A stretch of 64,000 bases of DNA from a virus: IMG/VR virus record IMGVR_UViG_3300034141_000082; one strand, given 5' to 3'. Position numbers and translations under genes: made by a program. The notes beneath the pieces are model-generated. The model was given only the letters and a program-made list of their open reading frames with translations. It had not been told where the DNA came from and did not search any database. Numbering within the stretch: the first letter of the stretch is position 1; each line of letters starts with the position of its first letter. Below are positions 3,260-57,618 of this stretch, piece by piece.

Positions 3260-3492
3260 GACGACCTGTCCATTCCGTTGGCGGCGCAGAGCGAGTCGGC
3301 GGCCTGCTCCCACGTGGCGTAGCCGATGCCCGCGGGGATGTAGATCCAGTGGCGCCGGCCGTAGATGTCGTAGTCCAGCGCACGGCGCATCACCCACCAG
3401 ACACCAGGCACGAGCCGGCGGATGCGGAACACCGGTGGTGCGGACTCGTCGTCCTCGAACAGGCGACCGATCAACCCGTGGATGCCACCCAT
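3253..3492 (-). CDS. Hypothetical protein
   Basis: TGATG overlap with the RuvC stop. Confidence 0.6.
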   Translation of the reverse strand: MGGIHGLIGRLFEDDESAPPVFRIRRLVPGVWWVMRRALDYDIYGRRHWIYIPAGIGYATWEQAADSLCAANGMDRSSC

Positions 3493-4058
3493 CACGCCGC
3501 ACGCTCTTTCGTCAGCTTCAGCGCGGCGGCGTTCCACGGATTCTTCTTCACCGCGGTGAGGGCCAGCAGCCGGTCCGAGGAGAGCTGGTAGGTCGGCTCG
3601 CCGAGCAGGTGCATGCCGAGTTCGCGCAGCACGCTGGCGTCGGCCTGGTTGTGGTCGCCGGCGAAGTCGACGCCGGTGATGCGGCTCCACTCGGACAGCA
3701 CGAGATCCTTGTTGCCGCGGCCGGTGCCGGTGGCGAACTTGGCCCGGCCGCCGGGGCTGACGCTCACGAGGGGGATGCCGCGCTGGGCGATGGCGAGCTT
3801 GATCACGCCGGCCGCTTCGCCGATGCCGAACACGTCGCCGAACTTCTTCAGGCCGTAGTTGTATGCCTCGATCACCACGAGATCGACACGGTGCTCATCG
3901 AGCAGCGCGGTGGCGTGGTCGTAGAGAAAGGTCAGCCGCGCGCCGGTCGGCTCCTTCGCCTTCAGCTTGTTGATCCAGGTCTCGTGACCGCCGTCCGGCC
4001 GCGCAATCCCGGTCCCGGCTGGGCTGGCGTCCACGCCCAGCACCCTCCACCCGCTCAT
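3492..4058 (-). CDS. ruvC: RuvC-like Holliday junction resolvase
   Basis: VLGVDAS..TG, VVIEAY, GEAAGVIKL, KFATGTGRGNKD, HNQADA motifs. Confidence 0.9.
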   Translation of the reverse strand: MSGWRVLGVDASPAGTGIARPDGGHETWINKLKAKEPTGARLTFLYDHATALLDEHRVDLVVIEAYNYGLKKFGDVFGIGEAAGVIKLAIAQRGIPLVSVSPGGRAKFATGTGRGNKDLVLSEWSRITGVDFAGDHNQADASVLRELGMHLLGEPTYQLSSDRLLALTAVKKNPWNAAALKLTKERAA

Positions 4059-4432: not shown

Positions 4433-5005
4433 TCAGAAGTCGTCGAGCCCGGCAGCGTCGAGCGCGGCCACGGTCTCGTCCTTCGCGGGCGCGGCCTTGG
4501 CTGCCGGCTTCTTGGCGGGCGCGGCCTTGGGGGCCGGGGCCGGCGTGTCGTCCTCGTCGTCGAAGTCCGAGGGCTTGACCAGGGGGGCGTTCTTGTAGCG
4601 GTAGACCATTTCCTTCGTCGGGCTCCAGGCGCGCTTGATGCGCTCGCCCTCGGACTTGAACTTGGCCCAGAACTCCCCGCCGGTCTCGACGTCCTCGGCC
4701 TCGGCCTTGACGAGTGCCTCGATGAACGCCTTCTTCTGCGCGCCCCACCACTTGATGTAGATGGCGCGCTTGCCGTCGTCCTCGCGGCCCTGGTCGTCGA
4801 CACCCTCGTTGAGGTCGGTCTGCACGATGATGCGGACCTTCTGCTTCTGGTTGCCGTCCTCCCAGAACTCCAGCTCGTTGTCCTCGTCTCGGGACTGGAT
4901 GACGTCGGCCGAGATGACCGTGCCGCCGACGATGTCCCCGACGTTGGGGAACTTGGCGCCGCGGGCGCCACCGGTGGAGGATGCGATCAGTGCCTTGATA
5001 CCCAT
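4433..5005 (-). CDS. Actinophage-type single-stranded DNA-binding protein
   Basis: AKFPNVGDIVGGTV..Q...WEDG..K.K..I..QT pattern; acidic/Pro-Ala tail; next to the exonuclease. Confidence 0.7.
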   Translation of the reverse strand: MGIKALIASSTGGARGAKFPNVGDIVGGTVISADVIQSRDEDNELEFWEDGNQKQKVRIIVQTDLNEGVDDQGREDDGKRAIYIKWWGAQKKAFIEALVKAEAEDVETGGEFWAKFKSEGERIKRAWSPTKEMVYRYKNAPLVKPSDFDDEDDTPAPAPKAAPAKKPAAKAAPAKDETVAALDAAGLDDF

Positions 5006-5078
5006 GCGTGATTTCTCCATCTCAGAGGTTTTTTCCTGTGTGATAAATCTACGATCTGTGAATTTTTCGCGCCCCCGC

Positions 5079-5864
5079 TCACGCCGATCTGGCGGGCCGC
5101 TTCAGCAGTCCGGCAACGGTGGTCGCGGTGACGGTCGGGTTCGCTGTCGGGCATGTCGGGCGGCCGGGCGCCGGGGTGGCGAACGGGCAGCGCCGGCAGA
5201 AGTCGTCGACCGTCTTCAGGCGCTCCAGCGTGGCGGGAAGGCCGTCGTCCTCGACGGCCTGGAGAACGCGGCTGGCACGATTCAGGGCGGCTTGGGCGAC
5301 GGCCGGGTTGTAGGGCTCCTCGAACCAGAGCCGCTCACGGAACTCGCCGGCCGCGGGCATCGCCACCACCGCGACGGCGTTCACTGCGAAGCCCTCGTTC
5401 TCGTACCCGGCACCGTAGAGCTGCCCCTGGACGCGGTAGGTCTGCCCTGGACCGTGCGTCTTCTTCTCCTTGATGCTCCCGGGGCCCGGGACCTTGATGT
5501 CGACCACGGTGCCGCTGGGGACGTGGAAGAGGTCCGCGGTGCCCCAGATCTCGGTCTCGCCGTTGGTGGTGACCAGCTTCCCGACCATCACCTTGCGCTC
5601 GGTCAACCACAGGCCCTCGCCGTAGCGGATGAATTTGTCCTCGGCCCAGGCGTGGTAGCCGACGCCGACGGTCTGCCGGTGCTGGGTCTCGGGCTTCTGC
5701 CGATCGTCGGCCTGGGCCAGCTGGTAGGCCAGCTTGCGCGGGCACGGCGTGCCGAGCCCGGACGGGCCGATTAATTTCTGCTGCGAGCGTTCGTGTCCTG
5801 CCATGCCTGCGAGCACCGTCTTGGTGAAATGGTCTTCGGCGCTCAGCGACGTGTCAGGGGTCAT
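5079..5864 (-). CDS. Cas4-family (RecB/PD-(D/E)xK) exonuclease
   Basis: GPSGLG..CPRK, GTADL, VDIK, Q.QLYG and C-terminal C..CPF. Confidence 0.85.
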   Translation of the reverse strand: MTPDTSLSAEDHFTKTVLAGMAGHERSQQKLIGPSGLGTPCPRKLAYQLAQADDRQKPETQHRQTVGVGYHAWAEDKFIRYGEGLWLTERKVMVGKLVTTNGETEIWGTADLFHVPSGTVVDIKVPGPGSIKEKKTHGPGQTYRVQGQLYGAGYENEGFAVNAVAVVAMPAAGEFRERLWFEEPYNPAVAQAALNRASRVLQAVEDDGLPATLERLKTVDDFCRRCPFATPAPGRPTCPTANPTVTATTVAGLLKRPARSA

Positions 5865-5882
5865 CCTTCCACTGTAGGAAAA

Positions 5883-5917
5883 CAAGAAACGCCCGGCCCC
5901 CAGGCCGAGCGTTCTTG
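5883..5917 (-). terminator. Probable terminator after the holin
   Basis: Imperfect hairpin CAAGAAACGCCCGGCC..GGCCGAGCGTTCTTG. Confidence 0.5.
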
Positions 5918-7259: not shown

Positions 7260-7435
7260 GGGGACTTCACCTCCCAGGCTTGGACGATGTAGGGGTAGAG
7301 CGGGGCGTGCGAGAGCAGGTTCGACTCGCGCGCGACAGCCTCGGCGTGGGCCTTGCTCTCGTAGAGCGAGCACAGCAAGTGGTGCTCGTACCCGGGCCGC
7401 TCCTCGTGAATGAAGAAGACGCCGTAGACCGTCAC
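7253..7435 (-). CDS. Hypothetical protein
   Basis: Overlap-coupled between Ku and the ligase. Confidence 0.6.
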   Translation of the reverse strand: MTVYGVFFIHEERPGYEHHLLCSLYESKAHAEAVARESNLLSHAPLYPYIVQAWEVKSPW

Positions 7436-8262
7436 GACAGCAGGTCCGCTTCGAGCAGCGCTTCCAGGTCCGCCGTCGCCGCGTTCTCTGCGAACGTGAC
7501 GCGCTCGCCGCGGGGCTTGACCAGCGCCTCGGCACCGGCTGCCTCCGCCTCGTTCGCGGCACGGCGCAGCGCCTCGCGGCCCGGGTCGATGGCGAGCTCG
7601 GCGATCTCGTCACGGGTGACCGGCTCGGCGGCCATGCTGAACATCGCCCGCGCCCGGTCGACCATGCGAGGGTCGGCGTCCGGCGGCTCGATCGGCGCGG
7701 CCCGCAGGTCGGCCGCGGGCACGAGCTCCACCATCGTGAGCAGGCCGTTGTGCGCGCCGATCCGGTAGAGCTTGGCGACGCTGCGCGATGCCCACGCGGT
7801 GACCAGCACCAGGCCGTCGTCCTCGATGGCCCGCACCAGCCCGAGGTAGGCGACGGCGTCGCCGGGGGCCGGCGTGAGCCAGTACAGGTTGCTCGACTCC
7901 ACGGCGCTGTCGCGCAGGTCGTAGGGGTCGACGGCGTGCGTCTGCATCACGTCACGCAGCGGGGCGACGTCGAGCAGGCGGTCGGCCTGCGCCGACGCGG
8001 CCAGCGGCACGAGGGCGCCGGTGTCGGACTTGTAGGCCCGGACCTCCTCGCCGACGACGTGCTGGCCGCCGGCGGAGCACACAGCGCAGAAGCGCTCGCT
8101 CTGAATCGGGGTCGCCTCGTGCGGACCGTCCTCGGTGCCCTTGCAGAAGGTGCTGGCGGAGGGCGCCTTGTAGACCCCGGAGTACACGCTGACCGTGATG
8201 CTCATCGGGCCCACGGACAGGACGACGTTGCTGCGACTGGAGCGCTTGCTGGCGGGCTGCAT
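7432..8262 (-). CDS. ku: Ku-like DNA end-binding protein
   Basis: Colinear by eye with bacterial Ku: LSVGPMSITVSVYSG, PIQSERFCAVC, EVRAYKSDTG.LV, YWLTP...AY.GL.RAI, ADLEALLEA; AGGAGG RBS. Confidence 0.85.
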   Translation of the reverse strand: MQPASKRSSRSNVVLSVGPMSITVSVYSGVYKAPSASTFCKGTEDGPHEATPIQSERFCAVCSAGGQHVVGEEVRAYKSDTGALVPLAASAQADRLLDVAPLRDVMQTHAVDPYDLRDSAVESSNLYWLTPAPGDAVAYLGLVRAIEDDGLVLVTAWASRSVAKLYRIGAHNGLLTMVELVPAADLRAAPIEPPDADPRMVDRARAMFSMAAEPVTRDEIAELAIDPGREALRRAANEAEAAGAEALVKPRGERVTFAENAATADLEALLEADLLS

Positions 8263-8273
8263 GGTGCCTCCTC

Positions 8274-9215
8274 TCAGAATTCGGTTTCGCCGACGTCGAT
8301 CAAGTCCTTCAACGTCTGGCAGTCGAGCAGGTCGGCGCTGGAGCAGATGCGGATCAGCGCGGTCATCTCGTGCGCCACCGGTGGTCGGCCGGTCGCCTCG
8401 ACGAACGCGGCCGACATCAGCGGCAGCACCGGGTCGGGCAGCGGGTTGATGTCGCCCAGCGCCTTCGCCACCTCGCGCAGCAGCGCCAGGTCGCGCCGGT
8501 GCAGGCTCGTCACCGAGGCGACGGACTCCATCGACCACTCCGACCGCTCCGCGAACAGGAACAGCGCCAGCGCGACGCTGCGGGCCGTGGACGGCGCGCC
8601 GCCGCCGCGGGTCCAGCGCAGGTGCCAGGGGGAGATGCAGTCCCGGGTGGAGCAGGAGACGTGCACGCTGCCCCGGCCGCCGCCCATGTCGACGCACATC
8701 AGCGTGGTCATGATGTAGTGCCGGATGGACTCGCGCCGGCCGTCGGGGGTGGTGATGCGACGGGAGTTGCGGATGATGCACTGCCCCTTGGTCGAATAGG
8801 CCAGCTGGCCGCGCTCGTTCGTGAGCAGGTCGTGCAGGCCGGGCAGGATCTTCTCGGCCGCGTTCACCATCGCCAGGCCCTTGCGGTTGCCGATGGCGAT
8901 GTTCAGAGACTTGGTCAGGTTGCTCTGGCGGACAGGCTTCACGTCGTGCCAGGTGAATCCGTCGGGGCTGAACCGGCCGCCCCAGACGCCGATCTCGTTG
9001 CCGGCTTCGGCGGTCTCGCCGCAGACCTGCCGGATTGGGCAGGCGTTGCAGTTCTGCGCCGCGATCCAACGAGCCATGAACGACTCGGTGGTCTGGTCGA
9101 AGAGCTTCTCCTGGCCGTTGCAGGGGGTTGGTCGGTGGAGGTCGAGAGCCTGCTCCATCGGGTTTCCCCGACGCCAGAGCGTCTCCCAATCCGCGTGACG
9201 TGGGACGCTGACCAT
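8274..9215 (-). CDS. WhiB-family domain fused to a degenerate HNH/His-Cys Zn loop and a possible HTH
   Basis: C..(x23)..CxxC(x5)C and GVWGG; later CSTRDCISPWHL; SMESVASVTSLHRRDL. Confidence 0.75.
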   Translation of the reverse strand: MVSVPRHADWETLWRRGNPMEQALDLHRPTPCNGQEKLFDQTTESFMARWIAAQNCNACPIRQVCGETAEAGNEIGVWGGRFSPDGFTWHDVKPVRQSNLTKSLNIAIGNRKGLAMVNAAEKILPGLHDLLTNERGQLAYSTKGQCIIRNSRRITTPDGRRESIRHYIMTTLMCVDMGGGRGSVHVSCSTRDCISPWHLRWTRGGGAPSTARSVALALFLFAERSEWSMESVASVTSLHRRDLALLREVAKALGDINPLPDPVLPLMSAAFVEATGRPPVAHEMTALIRICSSADLLDCQTLKDLIDVGETEF

Positions 9216-9517
9216 CAGTCGTCACCCATCCCGAGGTCGTCGAGCTCGCCGTCGTCGTCGATCGTCGCCTCGTACTCGTCGAGCGACATCGTGTGCGCCT
9301 CGTCGAGACCGGCCAGGATGTCCCGGACGTAGCCGTTGAGGCTGTCGACCATGTCCTCGACGATGGGCCGCACCGGCTCGGCGTCGCGGTCGAAGGTGAG
9401 GATGTGCGAGGTGGTCACGGGCGAGCCCTCGGCGGTCATGCGCGGGGCGGTCATGTAGATGATCTGCACGCTGTCGCCGTCGACCTCGACAGCGTTCACT
9501 CGAATTTCGTCGGCCAC
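9215..9517 (-). CDS. Acidic hypothetical protein
   Basis: TGATG coupling with the WhiB gene. Confidence 0.7.
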   Translation of the reverse strand: MADEIRVNAVEVDGDSVQIIYMTAPRMTAEGSPVTTSHILTFDRDAEPVRPIVEDMVDSLNGYVRDILAGLDEAHTMSLDEYEATIDDDGELDDLGMGDD

Positions 9518-9518
9518 G

Positions 9519-10394
9519 TCAGATTCCCTTCTCGGCGCGGATTCGCATCCGCTTGACGCCGGCGTGGTCGGCCACGAGGCCCGACGGGGTCGGCTTGATG
9601 TAGCGGCGTCGGATGAGCACCGCTTCGACGTCGTTCAGACCACCGGGCGCGCCGAGAATTCGGGCCAGCGCCTGTCGGCCGATGGGCCGACCGTGGTCGA
9701 TGAGGTAGGCGAGCATCTGGAGCGCGGAGTCGTCGAGACCGTCGCGCGTCAGCTGCGCCATCTCGACTGCCTTCTCGGGCCCGGCGGCCCAGAAGCCGAG
9801 GATGTTGCGCATGGTCCGCGGGTTGCCGACCGCGGCGCGCAGGAGCACCTCACGGCCGTGGGTGTCGAGGGTGATGCCGAACCGCGAGGCGACCTGGTCG
9901 GCGATGCGGCCGAGCTCCTCGTCGGTGTAGGCGATGTCCAGGCGGATGGGGAACCTAGAGAAGACCGTCTGGGGGAGCTGGCCGCGGTTGGTCGTCGCGC
10001 CGAAGGCGGTGAACCGGACGCTGCGGCCGATGCCGCGTGCGCCCTCCAGCGTGTCGAGCAGCCAGGTCTGATTCGCGTAGCTGTGGATCTCGTCGAGGAG
10101 CAGGAGCATGTCGTCCTCGATGTGGGCCAAGATCCAGTCGACCTCCTTGCGGTCGGGCTTGGCGCTGACGAGGATCACGCCCGCGGCGCTGATCTCCTTG
10201 GCGATGGCGAGGCCGAGCGACGTCTTGCCGAGGCCGCCGGCGCCGGTGAGCGCGAGCATGTGACGCGGGGGCCGACGCTCCTGAGCGGAGGCCGTCATCT
10301 CGAACGTGATGACCTCTTCGATGCCCGCGGGCAGGATGAGCTCGTCGAGCGACAGCTCCTCGGCCAGGCGTTCGGGGGTAATCAGGGTAGCCAA
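9519..10394 (-). CDS. ruvB: RuvB-like AAA+ branch-migration ATPase
   Basis: Walker A GAGGLGKT, LLDEIH, FTAFGATT, SRFPIRL..Y..EEL, GNPR, GLD, wHTH ending KPTPSG; AAGGAG RBS before TTG. Confidence 0.8.
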   Translation of the reverse strand: MATLITPERLAEELSLDELILPAGIEEVITFEMTASAQERRPPRHMLALTGAGGLGKTSLGLAIAKEISAAGVILVSAKPDRKEVDWILAHIEDDMLLLLDEIHSYANQTWLLDTLEGARGIGRSVRFTAFGATTNRGQLPQTVFSRFPIRLDIAYTDEELGRIADQVASRFGITLDTHGREVLLRAAVGNPRTMRNILGFWAAGPEKAVEMAQLTRDGLDDSALQMLAYLIDHGRPIGRQALARILGAPGGLNDVEAVLIRRRYIKPTPSGLVADHAGVKRMRIRAEKGI

Positions 10395-10490
10395 TTTGTC
10401 ATCTCCTTTCTGTGTCTCTCACAATTCTCCGGGCGCGCAAAATCAGTGTCTGTACTGCGTACGGGGGACTAAATTCGCTGTATTGCAGCG

Positions 10491-10502
10491 CCATCCGGGT
10501 GA
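10491..10502 (-). promoter_or_regulatory. TCACC-N3-ATGG upstream box (variant) before ruvB
   Basis: TCACCCGGATGG on the minus strand; the downstream CGATA element is not conserved here. Confidence 0.5.
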
Positions 10503-10806
10503 AGTTCCTTGATCCACCCGCCAGACCGCAGACAGCCGAGACACCCCAAAATCAGGCTGCCTACACTGCACTTAGGTCCTTCTGAGATAGCTAGCGATCA
10601 GAGCCGATCGTGTGGTCGATGGCCCCTTGCGCCGCTGAAGCGAAGCGGAAGCGGGCGGCGGGACCGGAGGGCCCGAGGGCCAGAGAGCCACCGTCGGCAG
10701 AAGCTCTCTCAGAATTCTCAAACCATCTAAGACACCCCGGGCCGGCCCTCCGCTGGCGCTCCGGCCGCCCACCTGCCTCGCACCCCTGAACCCCCTGAAC
10801 TCAGAC

Positions 10807-11191: not shown

Positions 11192-12123
11192 CACAGCCGA
11201 CTGTCCAGGATCGACGCCGCCCGCGCCCGGTAGAACTCCGTGCTCCCCGGGTCGGTGCCCGCGTTGAGCAGCGCTGCCAGCACGCCCGCCATCGCCTCCT
11301 TCGAGCGACGCACGTCGCCGAAGGCGCTCACCGCGTGCAGCTTCAGCGACACCTGCTGCTTGTCGATCTGGCCGAGGATGAAGAACTCGTCGGGCTCGCC
11401 GGCCGTCTCGCTGGGCAGCCGAAGCCCGTGCCAGAAACCGACGACCGCGGGCAGCGGCTCCGGAGGCGCGGCCGTCTGGGCCAGCATGTCCCGCTGCTCC
11501 GTCACCGACGTGAGCTCACGCTCCAGGATCGTGATCCGGTGTCGGGCCTCGGCCAACCGCTCGGCATCCGAAGGCGGCCCGATCGGGCGCCGCTTGCCCA
11601 GCGTCTCGCGGTAGACGAACTCGTCGACAGCGTGACCCAGGTCGAAAGTCGGCACGGGAGGCAGCGCTCGACGAGCCGTCTCGGCGACGGCCGCCACTGA
11701 CCGCTGCACCTTCTCCAGAGCTTGCGTGATCTCGGGCGAGAGCTCCTCCTCGTCCGCGGCCCGGTAGTCCCCCTCGGTCGGCTCCGCCTCCGCCACCGGC
11801 TTCTCCCCGGCCGCCTCGGCGAACTCCTTCAGCAGCTCCAGGCTGTCGTCCGGCCCGGGGTCGGTGATGCCCGGGATGCCGAGCCCGGGCTTGCTGACCG
11901 ACACGCGCTCGCCGTGGAAGGCGACCAGGCGCAGCAGATCGTCCCGGGCCTTGGCGGCAAGCCTGAACGCCTCGACGACGTTCTCGTAGTCGCTCTCGCT
12001 CAGCAGCAGGCCGGACTGGCTCCTCCGGTTGTAGTCGTTGAACACGTCGTCGCGCAGGTTGAGCATCTGCCAGAAGTCGTCGAACGCCTTCGCCAGCACG
12101 GCACGCCGCTCGCCGGCCCTCAT
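11191..12123 (-). CDS. Hypothetical coiled-coil protein
   Basis: 310-aa ORF with phage codon bias, overlap-coupled. Confidence 0.7.
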   Translation of the reverse strand: MRAGERRAVLAKAFDDFWQMLNLRDDVFNDYNRRSQSGLLLSESDYENVVEAFRLAAKARDDLLRLVAFHGERVSVSKPGLGIPGITDPGPDDSLELLKEFAEAAGEKPVAEAEPTEGDYRAADEEELSPEITQALEKVQRSVAAVAETARRALPPVPTFDLGHAVDEFVYRETLGKRRPIGPPSDAERLAEARHRITILERELTSVTEQRDMLAQTAAPPEPLPAVVGFWHGLRLPSETAGEPDEFFILGQIDKQQVSLKLHAVSAFGDVRRSKEAMAGVLAALLNAGTDPGSTEFYRARAASILDSRL

Positions 12124-12437
12124 CGCACCCTCAGCAGGGCGTCGAGCTCGGTCTTGGTGACGACGACCGCGGGCTGGAGAACGATGGCGCCGCCCGGGTG
12201 GTAGTCCACGATATAGAGCTGGTCGGGCCTGACGTAGCCGACGAGGTCGACGCGACCCTTGCGGTCAACCTCGACGACGTCGAGCGCGTCCGGGTCGGCC
12301 ATGCGCAGCACCAGCTCCTCGGCGTAGCGGGCCTGTGCGGGGTCGGGATCGCGCAGCCCGCTGGTCGGCACCGCGGGCTCGAAGTCCTCGTCGCCGTAGT
12401 GGTCCAGGAACGCCTGGCCGATGTCGCCGCCGCTCAC
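12120..12437 (-). CDS. Hypothetical protein
   Basis: Overlap-coupled. Confidence 0.65.
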   Translation of the reverse strand: MSGGDIGQAFLDHYGDEDFEPAVPTSGLRDPDPAQARYAEELVLRMADPDALDVVEVDRKGRVDLVGYVRPDQLYIVDYHPGGAIVLQPAVVVTKTELDALLRVR

Positions 12438-12670
12438 GGCCGGTTCGCCTTCCGGCTGGCCTTCTGCCGGCTGGTCTTGCTGCGCCGCTTCGCCTTCGTC
12501 GCGGCCGACACGGTGCCGCGGTAGACCTGCTTGCCCTGGAGGCCGGCCAGGATCGCCAGCTGGTAGGGCGTGACGGGCTTGATCTTCGGGGCCTCGGTGG
12601 TGCCCTCGACTGGCTCCTGGCGCTTGAACAGTGCGCGGACCTGCTCGCGGATGGAGAGGTTCAGCCTCAT
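12434..12670 (-). CDS. Small basic protein (actinophage-type YxGTV..KAxRRxK)
   Basis: Lys/Arg-rich tail; start-associated leader upstream. Confidence 0.7.
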   Translation of the reverse strand: MRLNLSIREQVRALFKRQEPVEGTTEAPKIKPVTPYQLAILAGLQGKQVYRGTVSAATKAKRRSKTSRQKASRKANRP

Positions 12671-12704
12671 ATCAATTTCCCTTCTCTCGATGTGTGATCT
12701 TGGT

Positions 12705-12890
12705 CTAGCGCTTCTTGCCGGTGAGCTCGTCCATCGTCCAGTAGCCCTCGATGTTCTCGGTCCGGACGGCGCCGCACTCGCAACGCCTCAGCAGCGTCGT
12801 CACGTCGCCACCGGTCCTGATCCAGGTGAAGTGCTTCAGGCGCACCGTGCGGAAACGGTGTCGGTGCAGCCATCTCCATTTCAGGTTCAC
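12705..12890 (-). CDS. Small Cys/His protein
   Basis: AGGAGG RBS; HRF...RCECG. Confidence 0.65.
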   Translation of the reverse strand: MNLKWRWLHRHRFRTVRLKHFTWIRTGGDVTTLLRRCECGAVRTENIEGYWTMDELTGKKR

Positions 12891-12958
12891 GATTCCTCCT
12901 CTCGAAACGACGAAGGGCGGCCTGCCCCAGCAGACCGCCCAGCACCGTCAACGTTCTG

Positions 12959-13222
12959 TCAGGTGCCGGCCCGCCCCGGGGCGCTCTGCGGCCGGGCCAT
13001 CGCGCTGGCGACGACCTCGACGTCCGCCTTGGCGTCGCCGACGAGCTCGGTGGCGATCTCCTTGCGACGCTCGGGCTCGTTCGTCAGGTAGTTGACGAAG
13101 TGGGCCCGGTTGATCCGGCCGCGACTTCCGACCTCGACGCCCTGCTCCTTCAGCCAGGCCCGCACCTCGCTGGCCTGGTAGGGCTGGACGTCGCTGGATG
13201 GCTGGGTGCTCTTGCTGCTCAT
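12959..13222 (-). CDS. Lsr2-like DNA-binding domain without the N-terminal oligomerisation domain
   Basis: EVRAWLKEQGVEVGSRGRI matches the Lsr2 C-domain. Confidence 0.8.
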   Translation of the reverse strand: MSSKSTQPSSDVQPYQASEVRAWLKEQGVEVGSRGRINRAHFVNYLTNEPERRKEIATELVGDAKADVEVVASAMARPQSAPGRAGT

Positions 13223-13309
13223 TTTCGATGTGTCCTCTCGCTCAGGGGTTTTCCATTTCTAAATCTAGGGACGGCTGTCCCGGTGCGCCCCCGCGCGGAG
13301 TTGATTTGG

Positions 13310-13471
13310 TCAGGAGAAAATGCTGCCCCAGATATTCACGATCAGCCAGAGCAGGCACAGCCCGACGAAGACCGCGGCCAGGAGCCCGATGACGACAGCG
13401 ATTCCGCTGGCGGCGTAGGCGAAGACGTCGAGGACGCTCAGCCCCGGGCGCGGCGGCTTGGGCCGGCTCAC
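13310..13471 (-). CDS. Small membrane protein
   Basis: GTGA overlap; long hydrophobic C-terminus. Confidence 0.6.
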   Translation of the reverse strand: MSRPKPPRPGLSVLDVFAYAASGIAVVIGLLAAVFVGLCLLWLIVNIWGSIFS

Positions 13472-14139
13472 CGGAGCACGTTCCGCTGGATCGGGTGGGA
13501 TGAGTAGCCCCTTCGATGCCCGCTGCTGATCCGCAGAGCGGTCTCGATCTCCTGGTGGAGAGCCTCCAGGGTGAAGCCGCGGTAGTTGCGCAGCACGGCA
13601 TCGAATTCCCACTCGTCGAGCGCGGTCTCACTGACATGCCGCAGCCCCTCGCGGTAGGAACCAGTGACGTCCCGCTGGACTCGCCACACCACCCCGCTCC
13701 GCTCCGTAATCGCAGCCGCCTCGTTCGGGAAGCGGCAGTCCGGGATCACGTAGCTGACGCCGGGCTGGAGCCGGTCGAGCAGGGTGTTCACCCAGATCTC
13801 GCTGCTCAGGGTCTGCCGGCCCATCTCGGTGCCGATGCGCTGGAGGACGGCGCGGAACTCGGCGCCGTGGACGGGATGGTCCTTGGCGTCCTCGTAGCCG
13901 TGGGCGCTCTCCAGGCCGGTCCACCGAACGGGCCGACCCGCGTAGTGGTTGTAGCCCACGATCGGGTTCAGCGCCCGCGCGCACTCGCGCACGGCGTCCG
14001 CGAACGCGATCTTGGTGTAGCCGCGGTTCGCGACCAGGTAGTTGGCCGCGGTGTCCTTCCCGGACCTCGCCGGCCCGGCCAAGCCGATCAGCCTGGGCAA
14101 GTCACGCCCGGGTGGCAGGCTCGGATGTTGGGTGGTCAC
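13468..14139 (-). CDS. Deoxynucleoside monophosphate kinase
   Basis: IGLAGPARSGKDT, FADAVR, R..LQRIGTE.GR, IPDCRFPNE, HVSE. Confidence 0.9.
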   Translation of the reverse strand: MTTQHPSLPPGRDLPRLIGLAGPARSGKDTAANYLVANRGYTKIAFADAVRECARALNPIVGYNHYAGRPVRWTGLESAHGYEDAKDHPVHGAEFRAVLQRIGTEMGRQTLSSEIWVNTLLDRLQPGVSYVIPDCRFPNEAAAITERSGVVWRVQRDVTGSYREGLRHVSETALDEWEFDAVLRNYRGFTLEALHQEIETALRISSGHRRGYSSHPIQRNVLR

Positions 14140-14327
14140 ATGTCCTCCAGCTTCAGCCAGACGGTGTCGCCGGCGGTCGATATCAGGTTGCCTTCGCCGT
14201 CCTCTTGGGCCGGCTCGATCTCGACGGCCCGCACGTTGAACAGGCCGCCGTTGTCCTCGTCCATGCCCATCACGAGGTCGTTGTCGTTCGCCAGTGCGAG
14301 CAGGGCGCGCAGCGTCCCAACCCTCAC
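14136..14327 (-). CDS. Hypothetical protein
   Basis: Overlap-coupled. Confidence 0.6.
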   Translation of the reverse strand: MRVGTLRALLALANDNDLVMGMDEDNGGLFNVRAVEIEPAQEDGEGNLISTAGDTVWLKLEDM

Positions 14328-14509
14328 GGCTCGTCCACCAACTCGATGTCGATGTCGACGAGGTCACCCAGGCCCAGCCCCTTGGGCCCGCCCGAAAGCA
14401 CCCCTTGATAGCCCTCCAGCGACAGCCCGGTCTCGTCGTCCAGGTCGACCTGGTCCTCGTCGAGATCCTCGATCTCCAGGTAGCCGGTCACCTTGATTCG
14501 CTGTGCCAT
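14324..14509 (-). CDS. Acidic hypothetical protein
   Basis: GGAGG RBS. Confidence 0.65.
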   Translation of the reverse strand: MAQRIKVTGYLEIEDLDEDQVDLDDETGLSLEGYQGVLSGGPKGLGLGDLVDIDIELVDEP

Positions 14510-14524
14510 TTCAACCTCCTTCTC

Positions 14525-15001
14525 TCAGGCGCCCTGCAACAGGGCGTTGATCTCTCGGTCCAGGTTCTGCGCGATCTGCTCCGCGTGCTGCTTCAGCGCG
14601 ATGCCCAGCAGCAGGGTGAAGCACTGCAACTGGTCCAGCGGGAAGCGCGTCACGACGGAGTGGGGGACGTGCTCGTCGGGGTCCGGCGGCTCGTGGCTGA
14701 AGAGCCGGATGTCCAGCACCGTGGACTGCTTCAGCAGCTGGATGTCGCCGATCCCGCGGACGATGCCCTCGGTGCCCTGCACTGTGTCGCGCAGCATCTC
14801 GTGGTCGATGCGCCAGGCGACGGTCTCCGTGCTCTCGTGGAAGTTGAGCTGCACGGCGAACGGGTCGGCCACGTCCCACTGGAGGACGGTCTTGATCTTG
14901 CCCACCAGGGAGCCGTCGCTGGCGTCGATCAGCTCGGCGACCGACTCCATGTGGACTCGGCTGGATGGGCTCTCCGGGGTTGTGCTGGGCTTCTCGCTCA
15001 T
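14525..15001 (-). CDS. SsgA-like (SALP) cell-division/sporulation protein, copy 1
   Basis: LQWDVADPFAVQLNF..VAW....ML......GIGDI; C-terminal LDREINALL. Confidence 0.75.
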   Translation of the reverse strand: MSEKPSTTPESPSSRVHMESVAELIDASDGSLVGKIKTVLQWDVADPFAVQLNFHESTETVAWRIDHEMLRDTVQGTEGIVRGIGDIQLLKQSTVLDIRLFSHEPPDPDEHVPHSVVTRFPLDQLQCFTLLLGIALKQHAEQIAQNLDREINALLQGA

Positions 15002-16412: not shown

Positions 16413-16617
16413 GGGTCTCCTTCTCCGAGTAGGCGCCCTCGGGCACCGGGATCTCCTGGACTCTGCGGCGGACCACATAAGCCCACTTCTCCCACATGAG
16501 CCGGTAGTCGGATCGCAGCTCTTCCCACGGCAGCTGCTCCTCGCCCTCGTCGAACCGCTCGTACAGCCACCGCGCCAGGGGATCGCTCACCCACTTCGCC
16601 GGCTTGTCCTCAGCCAT
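16405..16617 (-). CDS. Hypothetical Trp-rich protein
   Basis: Overlaps the thyX stop. Confidence 0.6.
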   Translation of the reverse strand: MAEDKPAKWVSDPLARWLYERFDEGEEQLPWEELRSDYRLMWEKWAYVVRRRVQEIPVPEGAYSEKETRG

Positions 16618-17308
16618 CCTTCGTCCCCTCGCTGAAGTCGGCGTAGGTCGCCGGCGCGATGCCGCACAGCTGCCGCAGCAACTCCCCGGCCAGGTCGCGG
16701 ATCTCGGCATCCGCCCCGGGGGCGTAGCGCTTGGAGATCACGTCCCGCCAGGCCCGGTGGTTGCCGGTGACGACGATCTTCGTCTCGGTCATGTTGGGGA
16801 GCACGGCACGCGCGGCCTCTCGGGCCTTCTTGCGGTCGAGCCCCTTGTCCTCCAGGAAGCCGACCAGGGACACGTAGGCGCCGCGGGCAGTCTCCATCGC
16901 GTCGTCGAGCACGTCCACGGCCATCTCGTACTCGGCCAGTGCCGGCGGCACGACGTAGTCGACGTCGTCCGACTTCACGAACCGCTGCGACACCTGCGAG
17001 TAGCTGAGATGCCGGTGTCGGATCAACTCGTGCGTCAACGCACGGCTCACGCCCTCGATGTAGAACGTCGCGCTCGCGTGTTCCAGCACGCTGAAGTGCC
17101 CCTGGCTGATGATGTTGCGCAGGTAGGCGGCGTTGTCCCGGCCGCTCGGGTTGGACCAGCTCTGGTAGCAGGCTCGCCCGGCGAACTCGGCGAGCAGGTC
17201 GGCCCGCCGTCCGACGCTCTGCCATGCCGGCGCGAGCTCCTCCATCTTGGTGGCGCCGTTGAAGTCGGCGCCAGCGAGCGCGGTGTGTGCGATCAGGGTG
17301 GCCTTCAT
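16610..17308 (-). CDS. thyX: Flavin-dependent thymidylate synthase
   Basis: EFAGRACY, GHFSVLEH, RHRHLSYSQVSQR, GNHRAW, AEIR. Confidence 0.97.
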   Translation of the reverse strand: MKATLIAHTALAGADFNGATKMEELAPAWQSVGRRADLLAEFAGRACYQSWSNPSGRDNAAYLRNIISQGHFSVLEHASATFYIEGVSRALTHELIRHRHLSYSQVSQRFVKSDDVDYVVPPALAEYEMAVDVLDDAMETARGAYVSLVGFLEDKGLDRKKAREAARAVLPNMTETKIVVTGNHRAWRDVISKRYAPGADAEIRDLAGELLRQLCGIAPATYADFSEGTKDG

Positions 17309-35414: not shown

Positions 35415-35830
35415 TGACCGGCCTGTCCATCGCCCTGGTGCTCGCGTATTTCGCGATCGGCCAGGTGCTGTCTGCGGTGATCGTGCGCCGTGTCGTCAAC
35501 CTCAACCGGCGCTACCAGTTCACCCGGGGCGACTTCAATTTTAACGACGTGCGCTGGGTGGTGGGCGCCGGCCTGTTCTGGCCGATCATCGGCTTCTACG
35601 TGATCTACCACCTGCACCGCTACGCCCGCCTCTTCTGGAAGAACGAGTTCTGTCTGTGCGTCCACGGCCGAGGCCGGCACGCCGACTCGCCGTCCGGCAA
35701 GCACACCGGGCACTGCACGGTCCGCCGGCCGATCCCGACCCGGCTCCTGTTCGACCCCGAAGCTGAAATCCCCTGGGAGCGCTGCGAGTGCGTCGACTTC
35801 CGCCCCGTCCCCCCGGAGGAGAACCGATGA
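35414..35830 (+). CDS. TM + Zn-finger-like protein
   Basis: CLCVH...H...HC...CECVDF. Confidence 0.6.
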   Translation: MTGLSIALVLAYFAIGQVLSAVIVRRVVNLNRRYQFTRGDFNFNDVRWVVGAGLFWPIIGFYVIYHLHRYARLFWKNEFCLCVHGRGRHADSPSGKHTGHCTVRRPIPTRLLFDPEAEIPWERCECVDFRPVPPEENR

Positions 35831-38199
35831 TCGGCCCCTACGAGATCGTCCGGGCCTACATCGACGCCGGCTGGGACGCCCCCTTCCCGCTGCCCGCCGG
35901 GAAGAAGTTCCCCCCGCCGGAGGGCTTCACCGGCGCCGGCGGCCGGTACCCCACGAACGAGGACTTCGAGCGCTGGATCGACCAGGACCGCTACGGCAAC
36001 TACGGCGTACGCGCCCCGCTCGGCGTCATCGGCATCGACTGGGATTTCTACAAGGGCCACCAGCTCTACGACTGGGTCATGCCCTACATATCCCGGGCCC
36101 CGCGGTCGACGTCCAAGGGCGGGGACGACGAGTCCGCGATCTACTGGGTGCGCGTCCCGGTCAATCTCGTCGAGCAGCTGCGCGACCGGCACTTCGCCGA
36201 GGCCGGCACCGAGGTCATCCGGGCTCAGCACCGCTACGCCGTCGTCTGGCCCTCGGTCCACCCGGACACCGGCCAGACCTACCGCTGGTACGCGGCCGGC
36301 TCGGAGACGCCGCTCGACGGCCCGCCCGAGCTCGACGACCTCCCCGCGGTCACGCAGGAGGTGCTCACCAAGGTCATCGCCGAGTACGGCGGTGGCCGCC
36401 GCACCGGTAAGTCGAGCGGGGTGAGCGGGCGCGGAGCTGGGGAGCTCGCCCCTGCGGTGGAGCTCAGCGAGCTCGGGAGCCTGAAGGCCCTGGTCCGCGG
36501 CTACCACCCCTACGACGTCGAGGTCGGCCCCGAGCTGACGGCCCGCCGTGCGATCTTCGAGGCCAGCCGGACCGGCGACATCCTGGGCGACCTCGACGAC
36601 CTCGTCGGCGGGGCTGACGCCTGGGAGTCCTCGGTCGGCACACTGAGCTTCAAGCTCATCTCGCTGGCCCTGGCCCCCTGGAGCGCGCTCACGCTGGAGC
36701 GGGTTGTCGAGCTCGTCGAGGAGAACGGCCCCACCTGCGAGCTCGCGGTGCAGCGCGGCGTGCACGACCACCGCGGTACCTGCTGGACGGCGGCCGACAA
36801 CCGGGTCCGGGCCGAGCGCTCCATCGAGCAGCACGACGGCGGGTGGACCCAGCTCCCGGCCGAGCTCCGCCGCGATGTCCGCGAAGCCGCCGATGACAGC
36901 ACCGCGGCCCCGGCCGATGTCAGTTCACAGACATCGGCGCCGGCCGCCCCGGCCTTCGACGACGAGGACGACGACTTCTTCGACGAGCCCGTCCGGCGCG
37001 ACCCGGCCGCCATGTTCCTGCGCCTGGACCGCAGCCTCACCCGCCAGGCCCGCCCGCGGCCCATCGCCGGCGGCCTGCTCTACGAGAACGTCTTCAACAT
37101 CGTCTCGGGTCGGGGCGGCCTGGGAAAATCCACCGCGGTCCAGGCGATCTGCGCTAAGCACGGCCCGACTCTGTGGCTGTCCACCGAGGAGAGCTGGGGC
37201 GCCGTCCACGACCGCGCGCTGGTGCTGGGGTACGAGGACTTTTACGCCCCGAACGAGCCCCTTACCGTCATGGACTCGCCGGTAATTTTCCAGTGGCTCG
37301 CCACAACGCCCGATGTCCGCACCGTAGTGATCGACAATCTCCAGGCTTTCTTCAAATTGGGCGCCGATTCAAACAATAACACCGTGGTCCGCGACGCCTT
37401 CCTGGAGTTCTACCGCCAGGCCGAGGCGCTGCGCATGACCGTGGTCGGCGTCTCCCACCCGCCGAAGTCCGGCGCCACGGCGGTGCAGGGGTCCGCCGCC
37501 TGGGAAGAGGTGGCTCGCCACGTCCTGAAGATGCAGGAGCTTGACGAAGAGGGCTACCGCGGCCTCGCGCTGAGCGTCGCGAAGACCAACCTGCACACCC
37601 GGGCGTACGACACCTGGCCCGTCACCATCGAGACCGTCGAGATCCCCATCCCCTCGGCCGACGGGACCATCGAGACGACGAGCCGAGCGCACTTCCCCGA
37701 GAGCGACGTCCTGCGCGAGCTGCTCCGCGGCTACATGGGCGGGCACGTCGCCGACGCCAAGGCCGCCGCCGGCCAGCGTGCGAACGCCAGGCACCGCCCA
37801 GAAGAACTCCCGCAGATCGACGACCTCGACCTGCTCATCACCCACAACTGGGTCGAGCCCTCGATCATCGCCGCTCGATGGAACATCCCGGTGAACCGCG
37901 TGCGAGGGCTGGCCGAGATGCACGACCTCGTCCTGCACACCGCGGCGGACGGCCGGCTGGTCTGGGTTGCCGAGGAAGGCGACGACACCTGGCTCGCCGG
38001 CGCGGCCGTGCCGACCGGCACCTTCGAGGTCGACCAGCTACTCCGCCAGCTCCAGGTCACCCAGACCACGCACCTCACCTGGCTCATCTCGGCCGCCGGC
38101 CTGGACGCCGACTACCGCGACACCGCGGTCACGATCACGAACCGCGAGCGCGACGAGGTCGACCAGGCCCTGCGCGACGCCGGACTGGAGGAACTGTGA
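35827..38199 (+). CDS. Bifunctional primase/polymerase fused to an AAA/RecA-like helicase
   Basis: PFPLPAGKKFPP..GN.G.R...IDWD..YAVVWPSVHP; Walker A GRGGLGKS; VVIDN; HPPK..GSAA. Confidence 0.88.
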   Translation: MIGPYEIVRAYIDAGWDAPFPLPAGKKFPPPEGFTGAGGRYPTNEDFERWIDQDRYGNYGVRAPLGVIGIDWDFYKGHQLYDWVMPYISRAPRSTSKGGDDESAIYWVRVPVNLVEQLRDRHFAEAGTEVIRAQHRYAVVWPSVHPDTGQTYRWYAAGSETPLDGPPELDDLPAVTQEVLTKVIAEYGGGRRTGKSSGVSGRGAGELAPAVELSELGSLKALVRGYHPYDVEVGPELTARRAIFEASRTGDILGDLDDLVGGADAWESSVGTLSFKLISLALAPWSALTLERVVELVEENGPTCELAVQRGVHDHRGTCWTAADNRVRAERSIEQHDGGWTQLPAELRRDVREAADDSTAAPADVSSQTSAPAAPAFDDEDDDFFDEPVRRDPAAMFLRLDRSLTRQARPRPIAGGLLYENVFNIVSGRGGLGKSTAVQAICAKHGPTLWLSTEESWGAVHDRALVLGYEDFYAPNEPLTVMDSPVIFQWLATTPDVRTVVIDNLQAFFKLGADSNNNTVVRDAFLEFYRQAEALRMTVVGVSHPPKSGATAVQGSAAWEEVARHVLKMQELDEEGYRGLALSVAKTNLHTRAYDTWPVTIETVEIPIPSADGTIETTSRAHFPESDVLRELLRGYMGGHVADAKAAAGQRANARHRPEELPQIDDLDLLITHNWVEPSIIAARWNIPVNRVRGLAEMHDLVLHTAADGRLVWVAEEGDDTWLAGAAVPTGTFEVDQLLRQLQVTQTTHLTWLISAAGLDADYRDTAVTITNRERDEVDQALRDAGLEEL

Positions 38200-47271: not shown

Positions 47272-47826
47272 ATGCTGACCGACAGCCGAATCCAGCAGGC
47301 CGTGCACTGGGGCGACCTGGAGATCAGCGGGTTCAACGACAGTCAGCTCCAGCCGGCCAGCTACGACATCCGGCTCCACGACGAGGCGCTTCAGCTCAGG
47401 CCCGGCCTGCCGCTGGACCCCCGCGAGAACGCCGAGCCGGAGTTCGAGCGGGTTCTGATCCCCGAGAGCGGCGCCGTCCTGCGCGGTCGCGGCTTCCTGC
47501 TCTGCTCCACCGCGGAGCGGGTCCGGGTCGGCCCCGGCTTCGTAGGGCAAGTAGAGGGGAAGTCGTCCCTCGGCCGCCTCGGCCTGATGGTCCACGCGAC
47601 CGCCGGCTACATCGACCCGGGGTTCGACGGTCAGATCACGCTGGAGCTCAGCTGCGTGCACGACCGCGGCGTGAAGATCTACCCGGGGATGCGGATCGGA
47701 CAGCTCGCCTTCCGGTACTGCGGTTCGGGGGACCGCCTGTACGAGGGCAAGTACCAGGGCCAGGAGGGCCCCACGGCCTCCCGCTACCACCAGAACTGGG
47801 ACGCCCTGCTGGAGCAGTGGCGATGA
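47272..47826 (+). CDS. dcd: dCTP deaminase
   Basis: LQPASYDIRL, EGKSSLGRLGL..HATAG.IDPGF.GQITLE, YPGMRIGQL, KYQGQ.GPT.SR. Confidence 0.95.
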   Translation: MLTDSRIQQAVHWGDLEISGFNDSQLQPASYDIRLHDEALQLRPGLPLDPRENAEPEFERVLIPESGAVLRGRGFLLCSTAERVRVGPGFVGQVEGKSSLGRLGLMVHATAGYIDPGFDGQITLELSCVHDRGVKIYPGMRIGQLAFRYCGSGDRLYEGKYQGQEGPTASRYHQNWDALLEQWR

Positions 47827-48515
47827 GCGGCGACTTCGACCTCGACCTCGACTTCGACGACGGCCCCGCGGACCCGCTGAGCCACGTCGAGGAGGGCGCC
47901 CCGCCGCTGACCGTCATGACGGTCGCCGGGTTCGAGCTGCCCGTCCTGGAGCCGGCCGAGAAGCGCTTCTACGAGACCATGCGGGACAAGTACACGACCG
48001 AGTACGTGATGACCGACCCGTCGGACATCGCCGACCTGGACGCCGTCCTGACGTACGAGCTGATGGTCTACCGGCTGTCGACCCAGCTGGGCCGCGGCTA
48101 CGACGCGAACCGATTTCCGCTCAGCCCCAAGGACATGGCCCAGCTCCAGCGCACGCTGAAGGAGGCCAGCGAGCACCTCGCGAAGCTGAAGGACGCCCTG
48201 GGCGTCTCGAAGTCCGCCCGGGACCGCGCCGCCGGCGAGGACACGGCCACCTACCTGACCGGCCTGCTGAAGCGGGCCAAGGAGTTCGGCGTCCACCGCA
48301 ACAGTCAGACGCTGGAATCCATAGCGCTCGCGCACGAGATCGGGTCCGTCGTCGGCACGTACCTGCGCAGCAACGAACTGGAGCGGTCGAAGACCAACTT
48401 CCGCACGGCCGAGGACATCCTCGCCTGGATCAACGAGACGGTGTACCCGCGGTTCACCAAGCTGGACGAGGACTTCCGGGCGAACCAGCAGTCGCAGTGG
48501 GTCGGTGAATTGTGA
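47823..48515 (+). CDS. Probable terminase small subunit
   Basis: Helical ORF overlap-coupled directly upstream of the large terminase. Confidence 0.55.
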   Translation: MSGDFDLDLDFDDGPADPLSHVEEGAPPLTVMTVAGFELPVLEPAEKRFYETMRDKYTTEYVMTDPSDIADLDAVLTYELMVYRLSTQLGRGYDANRFPLSPKDMAQLQRTLKEASEHLAKLKDALGVSKSARDRAAGEDTATYLTGLLKRAKEFGVHRNSQTLESIALAHEIGSVVGTYLRSNELERSKTNFRTAEDILAWINETVYPRFTKLDEDFRANQQSQWVGEL

Positions 48516-57539: not shown

Positions 57540-57618
57540 GACCGTAAATCTACTCGGCGGCTGTCCAGACCGGCAGATGCTGGGGGCCGATCACCCCGGC
57601 CAGACCTAATCTGACTAC

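What the first reader, a model, noticed from the sequence alone, without database searches (positions are those of the whole stretch)
9519..10394. Phage RuvB-like motor with RuvC but no RuvA in the window
Seen: full RuvB-like architecture including the C-terminal winged helix, with RuvC 5.5 kb downstream in the same arm. Established: RuvB needs RuvA to load on junctions, and phages usually carry resolvases but rarely RuvB. Inference: it recruits host RuvA, uses a novel loader (for example the acidic 100-aa neighbour 9215-9517), or acts as a dominant modulator.
Basis: partly seen in the sequence, partly recalled or inferred. Interest (0 to 1): 0.62.

Follow-up and report, generated by a model that had tools for sequence, protein, structure and literature searches.

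The report
Phage mini-RuvB lacking its RuvA dock
An uncultured temperate phage of high-GC actinomycetes encodes a real but stripped-down RuvB DNA motor that has lost the loop by which RuvB docks on its usual partner RuvA, so it probably works without RuvA in the phage's own DNA repair and recombination gene cluster.

Summary
Window 9519-10394 (-) encodes a 291-aa protein whose only convincing relatives are RuvB. PDB phmmer gives E 9e-14 over residues 14-285. The AlphaFold model (pLDDT 92) aligns to T. maritima RuvB at Z 26 and 2.4 A over 273 residues, winged helix included. Walker A and B, sensor 1, arginine finger and sensor 2 are invariant in an 18-member family.

A RuvC-like resolvase lies at 3492-4058 (-). 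An actinobacterial RuvA profile finds nothing in any frame of the 64 kb.

The new point is that the protein is a cut-down RuvB. The Walker B to sensor 1 spacer is 26-27 aa, against 41-42 in canonical RuvB, and the model has no presensor-1 beta-hairpin, which is the RuvA domain III dock. About 14 lid residues are missing and the head-domain arginine wing is replaced. It scores 78 bits against the NCBIfam RuvB cut-off of 282.

Recruiting host RuvA is therefore unlikely. The acidic neighbour occurs only in the closest relative, so it is not a family-wide loader.

The most likely role is a RuvA-independent DNA translocase serving the phage's Ku, exonuclease and RuvC cluster. That role is inferred, not shown.

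This scan has already noted hairpin-less phage RuvBs on other DNA. 12.5 kb of the contig was not seen.

The parts
9519..10394 (-). Mini-RuvB: a 291-aa RuvB-fold AAA+ ATPase. Motifs: Walker A 51-59, Walker B DEIH 101-104, short Gly/Arg loop 118-124 in place of the presensor-1 hairpin, sensor 1 GATT 132-135, Arg finger R147, sensor 2 GNPRT 190-194, winged-helix head about 215-291.
10395..10571 (-). 177-nt intergenic leader upstream of the mini-RuvB gene, with an AAAGGAG ribosome-binding site. It may be the start of the transcription unit; no promoter was shown.
9215..9517 (-). Acidic 100-aa protein (pI 4.05; 26 D/E against 5 K/R). It is translationally coupled to the mini-RuvB gene. Its model has three strands, a long helix and a disordered acidic tail. 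It is conserved only in the closest relative.
8274..9215 (-). 313-aa protein with an N-terminal WhiB Fe-S domain. Its start overlaps the stop of the acidic gene.
7432..8262 (-). Very diverged Ku-like DNA-end-binding protein.
5079..5885 (-). Cas4/RecB-type exonuclease. A terminator-like hairpin at 5914-5887 lies just upstream of it.
4433..5020 (-). phrog_1911 protein of unknown function with an acidic ...DDF C-terminal tail. It is a candidate ssDNA-binding or annealing partner of the exonuclease (inference).
3492..4058 (-). RuvC-like Holliday junction resolvase, 188 aa.

Best explanation
The gene encodes a catalytically competent but heavily trimmed member of the RuvB branch of AAA+ ATPases. 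By analogy with RuvB it should form a ring-shaped motor that pulls on double-stranded DNA. It has lost the surface beta-hairpin that canonical RuvB uses to dock on RuvA domain III, and the phage window encodes no RuvA. So it most likely acts without RuvA, whether host or phage. Shown here: the RuvB fold in all three domains, intact ATPase motifs, loss of the hairpin, a shortened lid, a replaced arginine wing, absence of RuvA from the 64 kb, and a position at the head of a tightly packed minus-strand gene run that holds Ku, a Cas4-type exonuclease and a RuvC-like resolvase. Inferred: it is a hexameric dsDNA translocase or branch-migration motor that remodels branched or broken phage DNA for that repair and recombination cluster, for example by feeding junctions to the phage RuvC. 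Also inferred: targeting comes from its own altered head domain and the conserved Gly/Arg loop, or from a partner not yet identified.
For: RuvB is the sole strong match by sequence and fold. Walker A, Walker B, sensor 1, R147 and sensor 2 are invariant across 18 homologues of 46-87% identity, which indicates selection for ATPase activity. The Walker B to sensor 1 spacer is 26-27 aa, against 41-42 in canonical RuvB. The model has a helix at 110-116 and a loop, with no strands between residues 101 and 128, at pLDDT about 92. The hairpin together with helix alpha3 is the RuvA domain III binding site (PMC9477746; PMC10272136). No RuvA or domain III signal appears in six frames of the window. The family forms one clade with support 1.0 on a long stem. 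Context: RuvC-like, Cas4-like exonuclease and Ku-like genes lie on the same strand within 6 kb. RuvC homologues sit on contigs of exactly the lengths (41,184, 34,954 and 76,752 bp) that carry RuvB-like homologues P0005, P0011 and P0199. Shortened hairpins without a nearby RuvA are common among viral RuvB-likes: 53 of 81 IMG/VR ORFs have spacers of 29-38 aa, and a full RuvA is near only 1 of 80 loci.
Against: No biochemical data exist. DNA-contact residues of canonical RuvB are not kept. The wing motif RTPRGR aligns to KPTPSGL, and the Arg that follows DEIH is Ser (residues named in PMC9477746 and PMC10272136). DNA translocation in the RuvB manner is therefore not assured. The RuvB-RuvC link rests on close relatives only, so it is shared descent and not independent evidence. 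The 46%-identical homologue in L002 has no RuvC or Ku within 10 kb on either side. A terminator-like hairpin at 5914-5887 may separate the RuvB-like and RuvC transcription units. The 12.5 kb of the contig outside the window was not examined.
Confidence: 0.55

Rival explanations
1. It uses a dedicated phage-encoded adaptor in place of RuvA. Candidates are the translationally coupled acidic 100-aa protein or the WhiB-domain protein downstream. The adaptor would load or aim the motor.
For: The gap between the RuvB-like stop and the acidic gene's start is 1 nt, and the next gene overlaps. Earlier notes of this scan on other phages report small conserved partners next to hairpin-less RuvBs. A conserved Gly/Arg loop replaces the hairpin and could be a new docking site.
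Against: The acidic protein has a homologue only on the closest relative's contig, although the word-based search has limited reach for small, fast-evolving proteins. L002 has an HNH endonuclease downstream and an unrelated 109-aa protein upstream. The model of the acidic protein matches no RuvA domain and no PDB fold at E < 0.05.
Confidence: 0.2
2. It borrows host RuvA, and perhaps competes with host RuvB for it, to run classical RuvAB-type branch migration ahead of the phage RuvC.
For: RuvA is nearly universal in the presumed host class: 39 of 41 sampled genomes have it. RuvA-RuvB pairs can cross-complement between species (PMC9477746). Helix alpha3, the other half of the dock, was not assessed.
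Against: The presensor-1 hairpin, the main RuvA domain III contact, is deleted in every family member. Identity to actinobacterial RuvB is only about 25-28%.
Confidence: 0.12
3. It is not a recombination motor at all. On this reading it is a RuvB-derived AAA+ plus winged-helix protein recruited to another task, such as origin or helicase loading for the phage PrimPol-helicase and DnaE polymerase, clamp loading, or DNA-end handling with Ku during genome circularisation.
For: Canonical DNA-contact arginines are replaced. Weak PHROG hits are to 'clamp loader' families. The phage has its own PrimPol-helicase and DnaE-type polymerase. The gene heads the run that holds Ku. L002 keeps the gene without the recombination neighbours.
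Against: The fold match to RuvB, head domain included, is far stronger than to clamp loaders or other AAA+ proteins: Z 26 against at most 17, and Foldseek 1e-17 against 1e-8. No clamp gene was seen among the proteins scanned.
Confidence: 0.13

Closest known systems
Bacterial RuvB of the RuvAB(C) branch-migration machine (PDB 1IN4, 1HQC, 1IXS, 7PBL series, 8EFV)
   Same: It has the same three-domain architecture: large AAA+ domain, lid, and winged-helix head. Walker A and B, sensor 1, arginine finger and sensor 2 sit in the same places. VIA-align gives Z 26 and rmsd 2.4 A over 273 residues.
   Different: It has about 40 fewer residues. The presensor-1 hairpin (RuvA dock) is replaced by a short conserved Gly/Arg loop, about 14 lid residues after sensor 2 are missing, and the N-terminus is shorter. 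The head-domain arginine wing and the Arg after Walker B are not conserved. There is no adjacent ruvA. It scores 78 bits against the 282-bit cut-off of the NCBIfam RuvB equivalog.
Short-hairpin RuvB-like proteins of uncultured phages and MAGs (P0042-P0063 and IMG/VR loci L038-L041)
   Same: They share the RuvB fold, the reduced hairpin and the usual absence of RuvA nearby. They are the nearest sequence neighbours, at 33-40% identity and E 1e-21 to 1e-15.
   Different: Those proteins keep a 33-38-aa spacer, the full lid and a GR in the wing. This family is the most reduced seen here (spacer 23-30 aa) and forms its own long-branched clade.
Phage RuvC-type resolvases that work without a RuvB partner (jumbo phages, poxviruses; PMC7824862)
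   Same: This phage also carries a RuvC-like resolvase.
   Different: That review states that phage RuvC is not coupled to a RuvB-like ATPase. Here, and in at least three related contigs, a RuvB-like gene and a RuvC-like gene share one genome.

Membership tests
RuvB (Holliday junction branch migration ATPase) | AAA+ large domain with Walker A, Walker B, sensor 1, arginine finger and sensor 2 | tested here: met
   GAGGLGKTS 51-59, DEIH 101-104, GATT 132-135, R147 and GNPRT 190-194 are invariant in 18 homologues. Pfam RuvB_N scores 38.5 bits against a cut-off of 27.
RuvB (Holliday junction branch migration ATPase) | C-terminal winged-helix head domain | tested here: met
   The model aligns to 1IN4 through residue 288. 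Pfam RuvB_C is weak, at E 0.008 and below the cut-off.
RuvB (Holliday junction branch migration ATPase) | Presensor-1 beta-hairpin that docks RuvA domain III | tested here: not met
   The spacer is 26-27 aa against 41-42. There are no strands between residues 101 and 128 at pLDDT about 92.
RuvB (Holliday junction branch migration ATPase) | Conserved head-domain arginines that grip the DNA backbone (Arg291, 310, 312 and 315 in PMC9477746) | tested here: not met
   The wing motif RTPRGR aligns to KPTPSGL. An RRR cluster lies 6 residues earlier. The equivalent of Arg291 was not mapped.
RuvB (Holliday junction branch migration ATPase) | Partnership with RuvA (ruvA gene alongside) | tested here: not met
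   No RuvA profile hit appears in six frames of the 64-kb window. The 12.5 kb of the contig outside the window was not seen.
RuvB (Holliday junction branch migration ATPase) | Passes the curated equivalog threshold (NCBIfam NF000868 / TIGR00635) | tested here: not met
   78.3 bits against a cut-off of 282, and 75.9 bits against 299.
RuvB (Holliday junction branch migration ATPase) | Hexamer on dsDNA with ATP-driven branch migration | not testable with these tools
   This needs biochemistry or multimer modelling.
Clamp-loader AAA+ (DnaX / RFC type) | Best profile or fold match to clamp-loader subunits, with a C-terminal collar domain | tested here: not met
   PHROG clamp-loader hits reach only 1e-5 and cover the N-terminal P-loop part. 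Foldseek gives 4e-8 with TM 0.51, against 2e-17 with TM 0.83 for RuvB. NCBIfam dnaX scores 20 bits against a cut-off of 250.
RuvC (crossover junction endonuclease), for window 3492-4058 | Matches the RuvC profile above the curated threshold | tested here: met
   Pfam PF02075 scores 29.2 bits against 22.2. It is not an NCBIfam equivalog, at 34 bits against 163.

The most novel reading that the evidence does not exclude
This is a self-sufficient mini-RuvB: a RuvB-derived ring motor that finds and moves branched or broken DNA with no RuvA-like adaptor. It would use a remodelled head domain and the Gly/Arg loop that replaced the hairpin. Together with the phage Ku, ligase, exonuclease and RuvC, it would form a portable DNA break-repair and recombination kit.
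Probability: 0.3. Interest if true: 0.7.

Novelty: new variant of a known kind. Interest (0 to 1): 0.52.

Why it matters
RuvB is the textbook case of an AAA+ motor that depends on an adaptor. In the current mechanism (PMC9477746), RuvA domain III acts as tether, nucleotide-exchange factor and fulcrum. A natural lineage that keeps the ATPase core under selection but has deleted the RuvA dock asks directly how much of the RuvB mechanism really needs RuvA. It also offers a minimal 291-aa version for structural and single-molecule work. It adds to evidence, from this scan and from the IMG/VR loci examined here, that phages hold a large and undescribed radiation of RuvB-like motors that mostly lack RuvA. 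A published survey of jumbo phages found RuvC uncoupled from any RuvB-like ATPase.

Tried and rejected
The contexts of most family members and the 12.5 kb of the own contig outside the window could therefore not be read.
- No whole genome is held for the window.
- Close relatives were sought and not found in IMG/VR with the single protein or the family alignment; the only hit was a 25%-identity locus.
- INPHARED gave only three weak hits, all in faecal 'Bacteriophage sp.' fragments. Megablast of 15 kb matched known phages only over a 40-nt stretch.
- The one metagenome scan returned a single relative, L002.
- The genome scan returned only cellular ruvB (L003 lies in a ruvCAB operon) and weak hits.
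- The clamp-loader reading was rejected on fold and profile scores.
- The acidic neighbour as a RuvA mimic was rejected. It has no RuvA profile signal, no PDB fold match at E < 0.05, and is not conserved.
- Foldseek rows for XLF/NHEJ chains against the acidic protein (E 0.17-0.34, TM about 0.3) are not significant and were not used as evidence.
- The ESM Atlas gave only sub-threshold viral hypothetical proteins for the neighbour.
- A link between the L002 HNH endonuclease and the window's WhiB-domain protein was tested by BLASTP and not found.
- RuvC was sought near 80 viral RuvB-like loci. It was found only in L047, which carries a full ruvCAB set.
- The midpoint-rooted tree gives no informative sister group for the family.

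Full report
**Setting.** The window has 66-72% G+C over most of its length. It has the gene content of a temperate actinomycete phage:
- tyrosine integrase (56451-57539, -), PrimPol-helicase (35788-38199, +) and Lsr2
- DnaE-type polymerase (58047-61376, +), large terminase, endolysin and dCTP deaminase
- ThyX, an SsgA-like protein and a WhiB domain
- sortase and a GT2 glycosyltransferase

No whole genome is held for it. It matches no deposited phage beyond a 40-nt stretch. The protein database records its own contig as 76,538 bp, so 12.5 kb lie outside the window.

**The observation.**
- ORF 9519-10394 (-) has GC3 0.92. It starts at a TTG behind an AAAGGAG site.
- Its 291-aa product matches Pfam RuvB_N (1.3e-9, above the cut-off) and weakly RuvB_C (0.008).
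- All 18 best PDB sequence matches are RuvB. The alignment to T. maritima RuvB spans residues 14-285, at E 8.8e-14.
- An AlphaFold2 model built on an 18-sequence family alignment has mean pLDDT 92.2.
- Foldseek's top 45 chains are RuvB (TM 0.83, rmsd 2.4 A to 1IN4). Spastin and clamp loaders follow, nine orders of magnitude weaker.
- VIA-align gives Z 26.2 over 273 residues reaching residue 288. The best non-RuvB AAA+ reaches Z 16.9 and covers only the ATPase part.
My first GC3 filter missed it inside a longer spurious ORF. It passes Pfam RuvC at 29.2 bits against 22.2. Its start lies 5.46 kb downstream of the RuvB-like stop.
- For RuvA, I took ruvCAB loci from 39 genomes of the class of a Sporichthyaceae MAG. 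I built a 24-sequence RuvA profile and ran it unfiltered against all six frames of the window. Nothing scored better than E = 1.1.
- One of the loci offered for that profile (L021) comes from genome G032, which is flagged as unpublished. The negative result does not depend on it.

**What the protein really is.** It is a RuvB that has been cut down.
- In an alignment with canonical RuvBs (metagenomic and actinobacterial) and with its nearest non-family relatives, the stretch between Walker B (DEIH 101-104) and sensor 1 (GATT 132-135) is 26-27 residues. Canonical RuvB has 41-42.
- The missing residues are the two strands of the presensor-1 beta-hairpin. The model shows only a helix (110-116) and a loop between the strands at 96-101 and 128-134, all at pLDDT of about 92.
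- In its place the family keeps a short, nearly invariant Gly/Arg loop with G118, R120 and G121.
- That hairpin, together with helix alpha3, is the hydrophobic site where RuvA domain III binds. Through it RuvA tethers and regulates the motor (PMC9477746, read; PMC10272136).
- About 14 residues of the lid after sensor 2 are also absent, and the N-terminus is shorter.
- The head-domain wing, RTPRGR in canonical RuvB, aligns to KPTPSGL. It belongs to the arginine set said to grip the DNA backbone (PMC9477746). An RRR cluster sits six residues earlier.
- The Arg that follows DEIH, a DNA contact in T. thermophilus RuvB (PMC10272136), is Ser here.
- Walker A, Walker B, sensor 1, the arginine finger (R147) and sensor 2 (GNPRT) are invariant across homologues that are only 46-87% identical. 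This argues for a working ATPase and not a decaying copy.
- Against NCBIfam's RuvB equivalogs it scores 78 and 76 bits, where 282 and 299 are required. It is RuvB-like, not an orthologue of RuvB.

**Relatives.**
- The family is small. About 20 clusters at 90% identity, all from metagenome assemblies, were found among 5.8 billion proteins. Only 5 representatives below E 1e-30 were found among 1.84 billion.
- It forms one clade with support 1.0 on a long stem.
- Its nearest neighbours are a much larger cloud of RuvB-like proteins of about 290-345 aa: 144 representatives below 1e-10. These have an intermediate spacer of 33-38 residues.
- A profile of that cloud found at least 98 IMG/VR contigs. 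Of 81 RuvB-like ORFs in the 80 loci kept, 28 have a full-length spacer, 52 have 33-38 residues and one has 29. A full RuvA lies within 5 kb in one locus, and a weak domain-III-only hit in another.
- Among 50,697 deposited phage records only 33 match. Most are short faecal or host-like fragments, and none is an actinophage.
- So RuvB-like genes are rare in cultured phages but not in uncultured ones. This family is the most reduced form I saw.
- Earlier notes of this scan describe hairpin-less phage RuvBs and 'mini-RuvA' partners on other DNA. Those are unchecked AI notes. My IMG/VR tallies agree with the general pattern.
- I found no paper describing such proteins. A jumbo-phage survey states that phage RuvC is not coupled to a RuvB-like ATPase (PMC7824862).

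**The acidic neighbour.**
- Window 9215-9517 (-) starts 1 nt after the RuvB-like stop and overlaps the next gene.
- It is very acidic: pI 4.05, with 26 D/E against 5 K/R.
- Its model (pLDDT 75, two-sequence alignment) has three strands, a 38-residue helix and a disordered acidic tail. It has no PDB match at E < 0.05 and no likeness to any RuvA domain.
- It has a homologue only on the 41,184-bp contig that also carries the 87%-identical RuvB-like protein.
- In the only distant relative whose DNA I could read (L002, 46% identity), the gene is followed 2 nt later by an HNH endonuclease and preceded by an unrelated 109-aa protein. Almost nothing else in 20.8 kb resembles the window.
- The neighbour cannot be ruled out as a lineage-specific partner. 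It is not a family-wide loader.

**Context and likely role.**
- The gene follows a 177-nt intergenic leader.
- I could not confirm the mini-ligase reading with Pfam.
- A terminator-like hairpin at 5914-5887 comes next. After it lie a Cas4/RecB-type exonuclease (phrog_1674, 2.3e-53), a phrog_1911 protein with an SSB-like acidic ...DDF tail, a 100-aa protein and the RuvC-like resolvase.
- RuvC homologues lie on contigs of 41,184, 34,954 and 76,752 bp. These are exactly the lengths of contigs that carry RuvB-like homologues P0005, P0011 and P0199. The pair therefore co-occurs in at least three related phages. Because those are close kin, this is shared descent and not independent association.
- From this I infer a RuvA-independent DNA motor serving phage recombination or break repair. 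The replaced DNA-contact residues, the L002 context and the possible split into two transcription units keep other roles open.

**Verdict.** The interpretation needs revision: canonical recruitment of host RuvA is unlikely, the proposed loader is not conserved, and a dominant-negative role is improbable. The feature is a new, extreme variant of a known kind of protein. It belongs to a wider and apparently undescribed set of phage RuvB-like motors without RuvA. The unseen 12.5 kb of the contig and the lack of any biochemistry are the main caveats.

Noticed in passing
window 4433-5020 (-): The phrog_1911 protein (unknown function, E 2.6e-31) ends in an acidic ...LDDF tail like the C-terminal tail of bacterial SSB. 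It sits directly after a Cas4/RecB-type exonuclease, so it may be the ssDNA-binding or annealing half of a two-gene recombination pair.
   Followed up: partly
window 9215-9517 (-): The acidic neighbour's model (beta head, one long helix, acidic tail) draws several non-significant Foldseek rows for XLF and other NHEJ complex chains (E 0.17-0.34, TM about 0.3). The gene lies two genes upstream of the phage Ku. This is a curiosity only, not evidence.
   Followed up: partly
L002:10867-11181 (+): In the 74-kb relative an HNH endonuclease gene starts 2 nt after the RuvB-like stop, while the rest of the 20.8-kb locus shares almost nothing with the window. The RuvB-like gene may move between phages as a cassette with a homing-type nuclease.
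   Followed up: no
L002:5373-6179, 7734-8483, 11643-14773 (+): The relative phage carries a GGDEF-type protein, a GH16-like glycoside hydrolase and two large secreted proteins with signal peptides around the RuvB-like gene. That is unusual cargo for a phage.
   Followed up: no
IMG/VR loci L038-L117: At least 98 viral contigs, many of 80-390 kb, carry RuvB-like genes. Of 81 ORFs, 53 have a shortened presensor-1 hairpin region, and only one locus has a full RuvA within 5 kb. L051 has a weak hit to RuvA domain III only, just upstream of its RuvB.
   Followed up: partly
window 56451-61376: A tyrosine integrase (-) lies between the head-gene block (terminase at 48512-50071) and a 1109-aa DnaE-type polymerase (+). 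This is an odd place for both genes in a siphovirus-like layout.
   Followed up: no
window 13468-14100 (-), 16610-17308 (-), 47272-47826 (+): The phage has a nucleotide-metabolism set spread over both arms: dNMP kinase, ThyX and dCTP deaminase.
   Followed up: no
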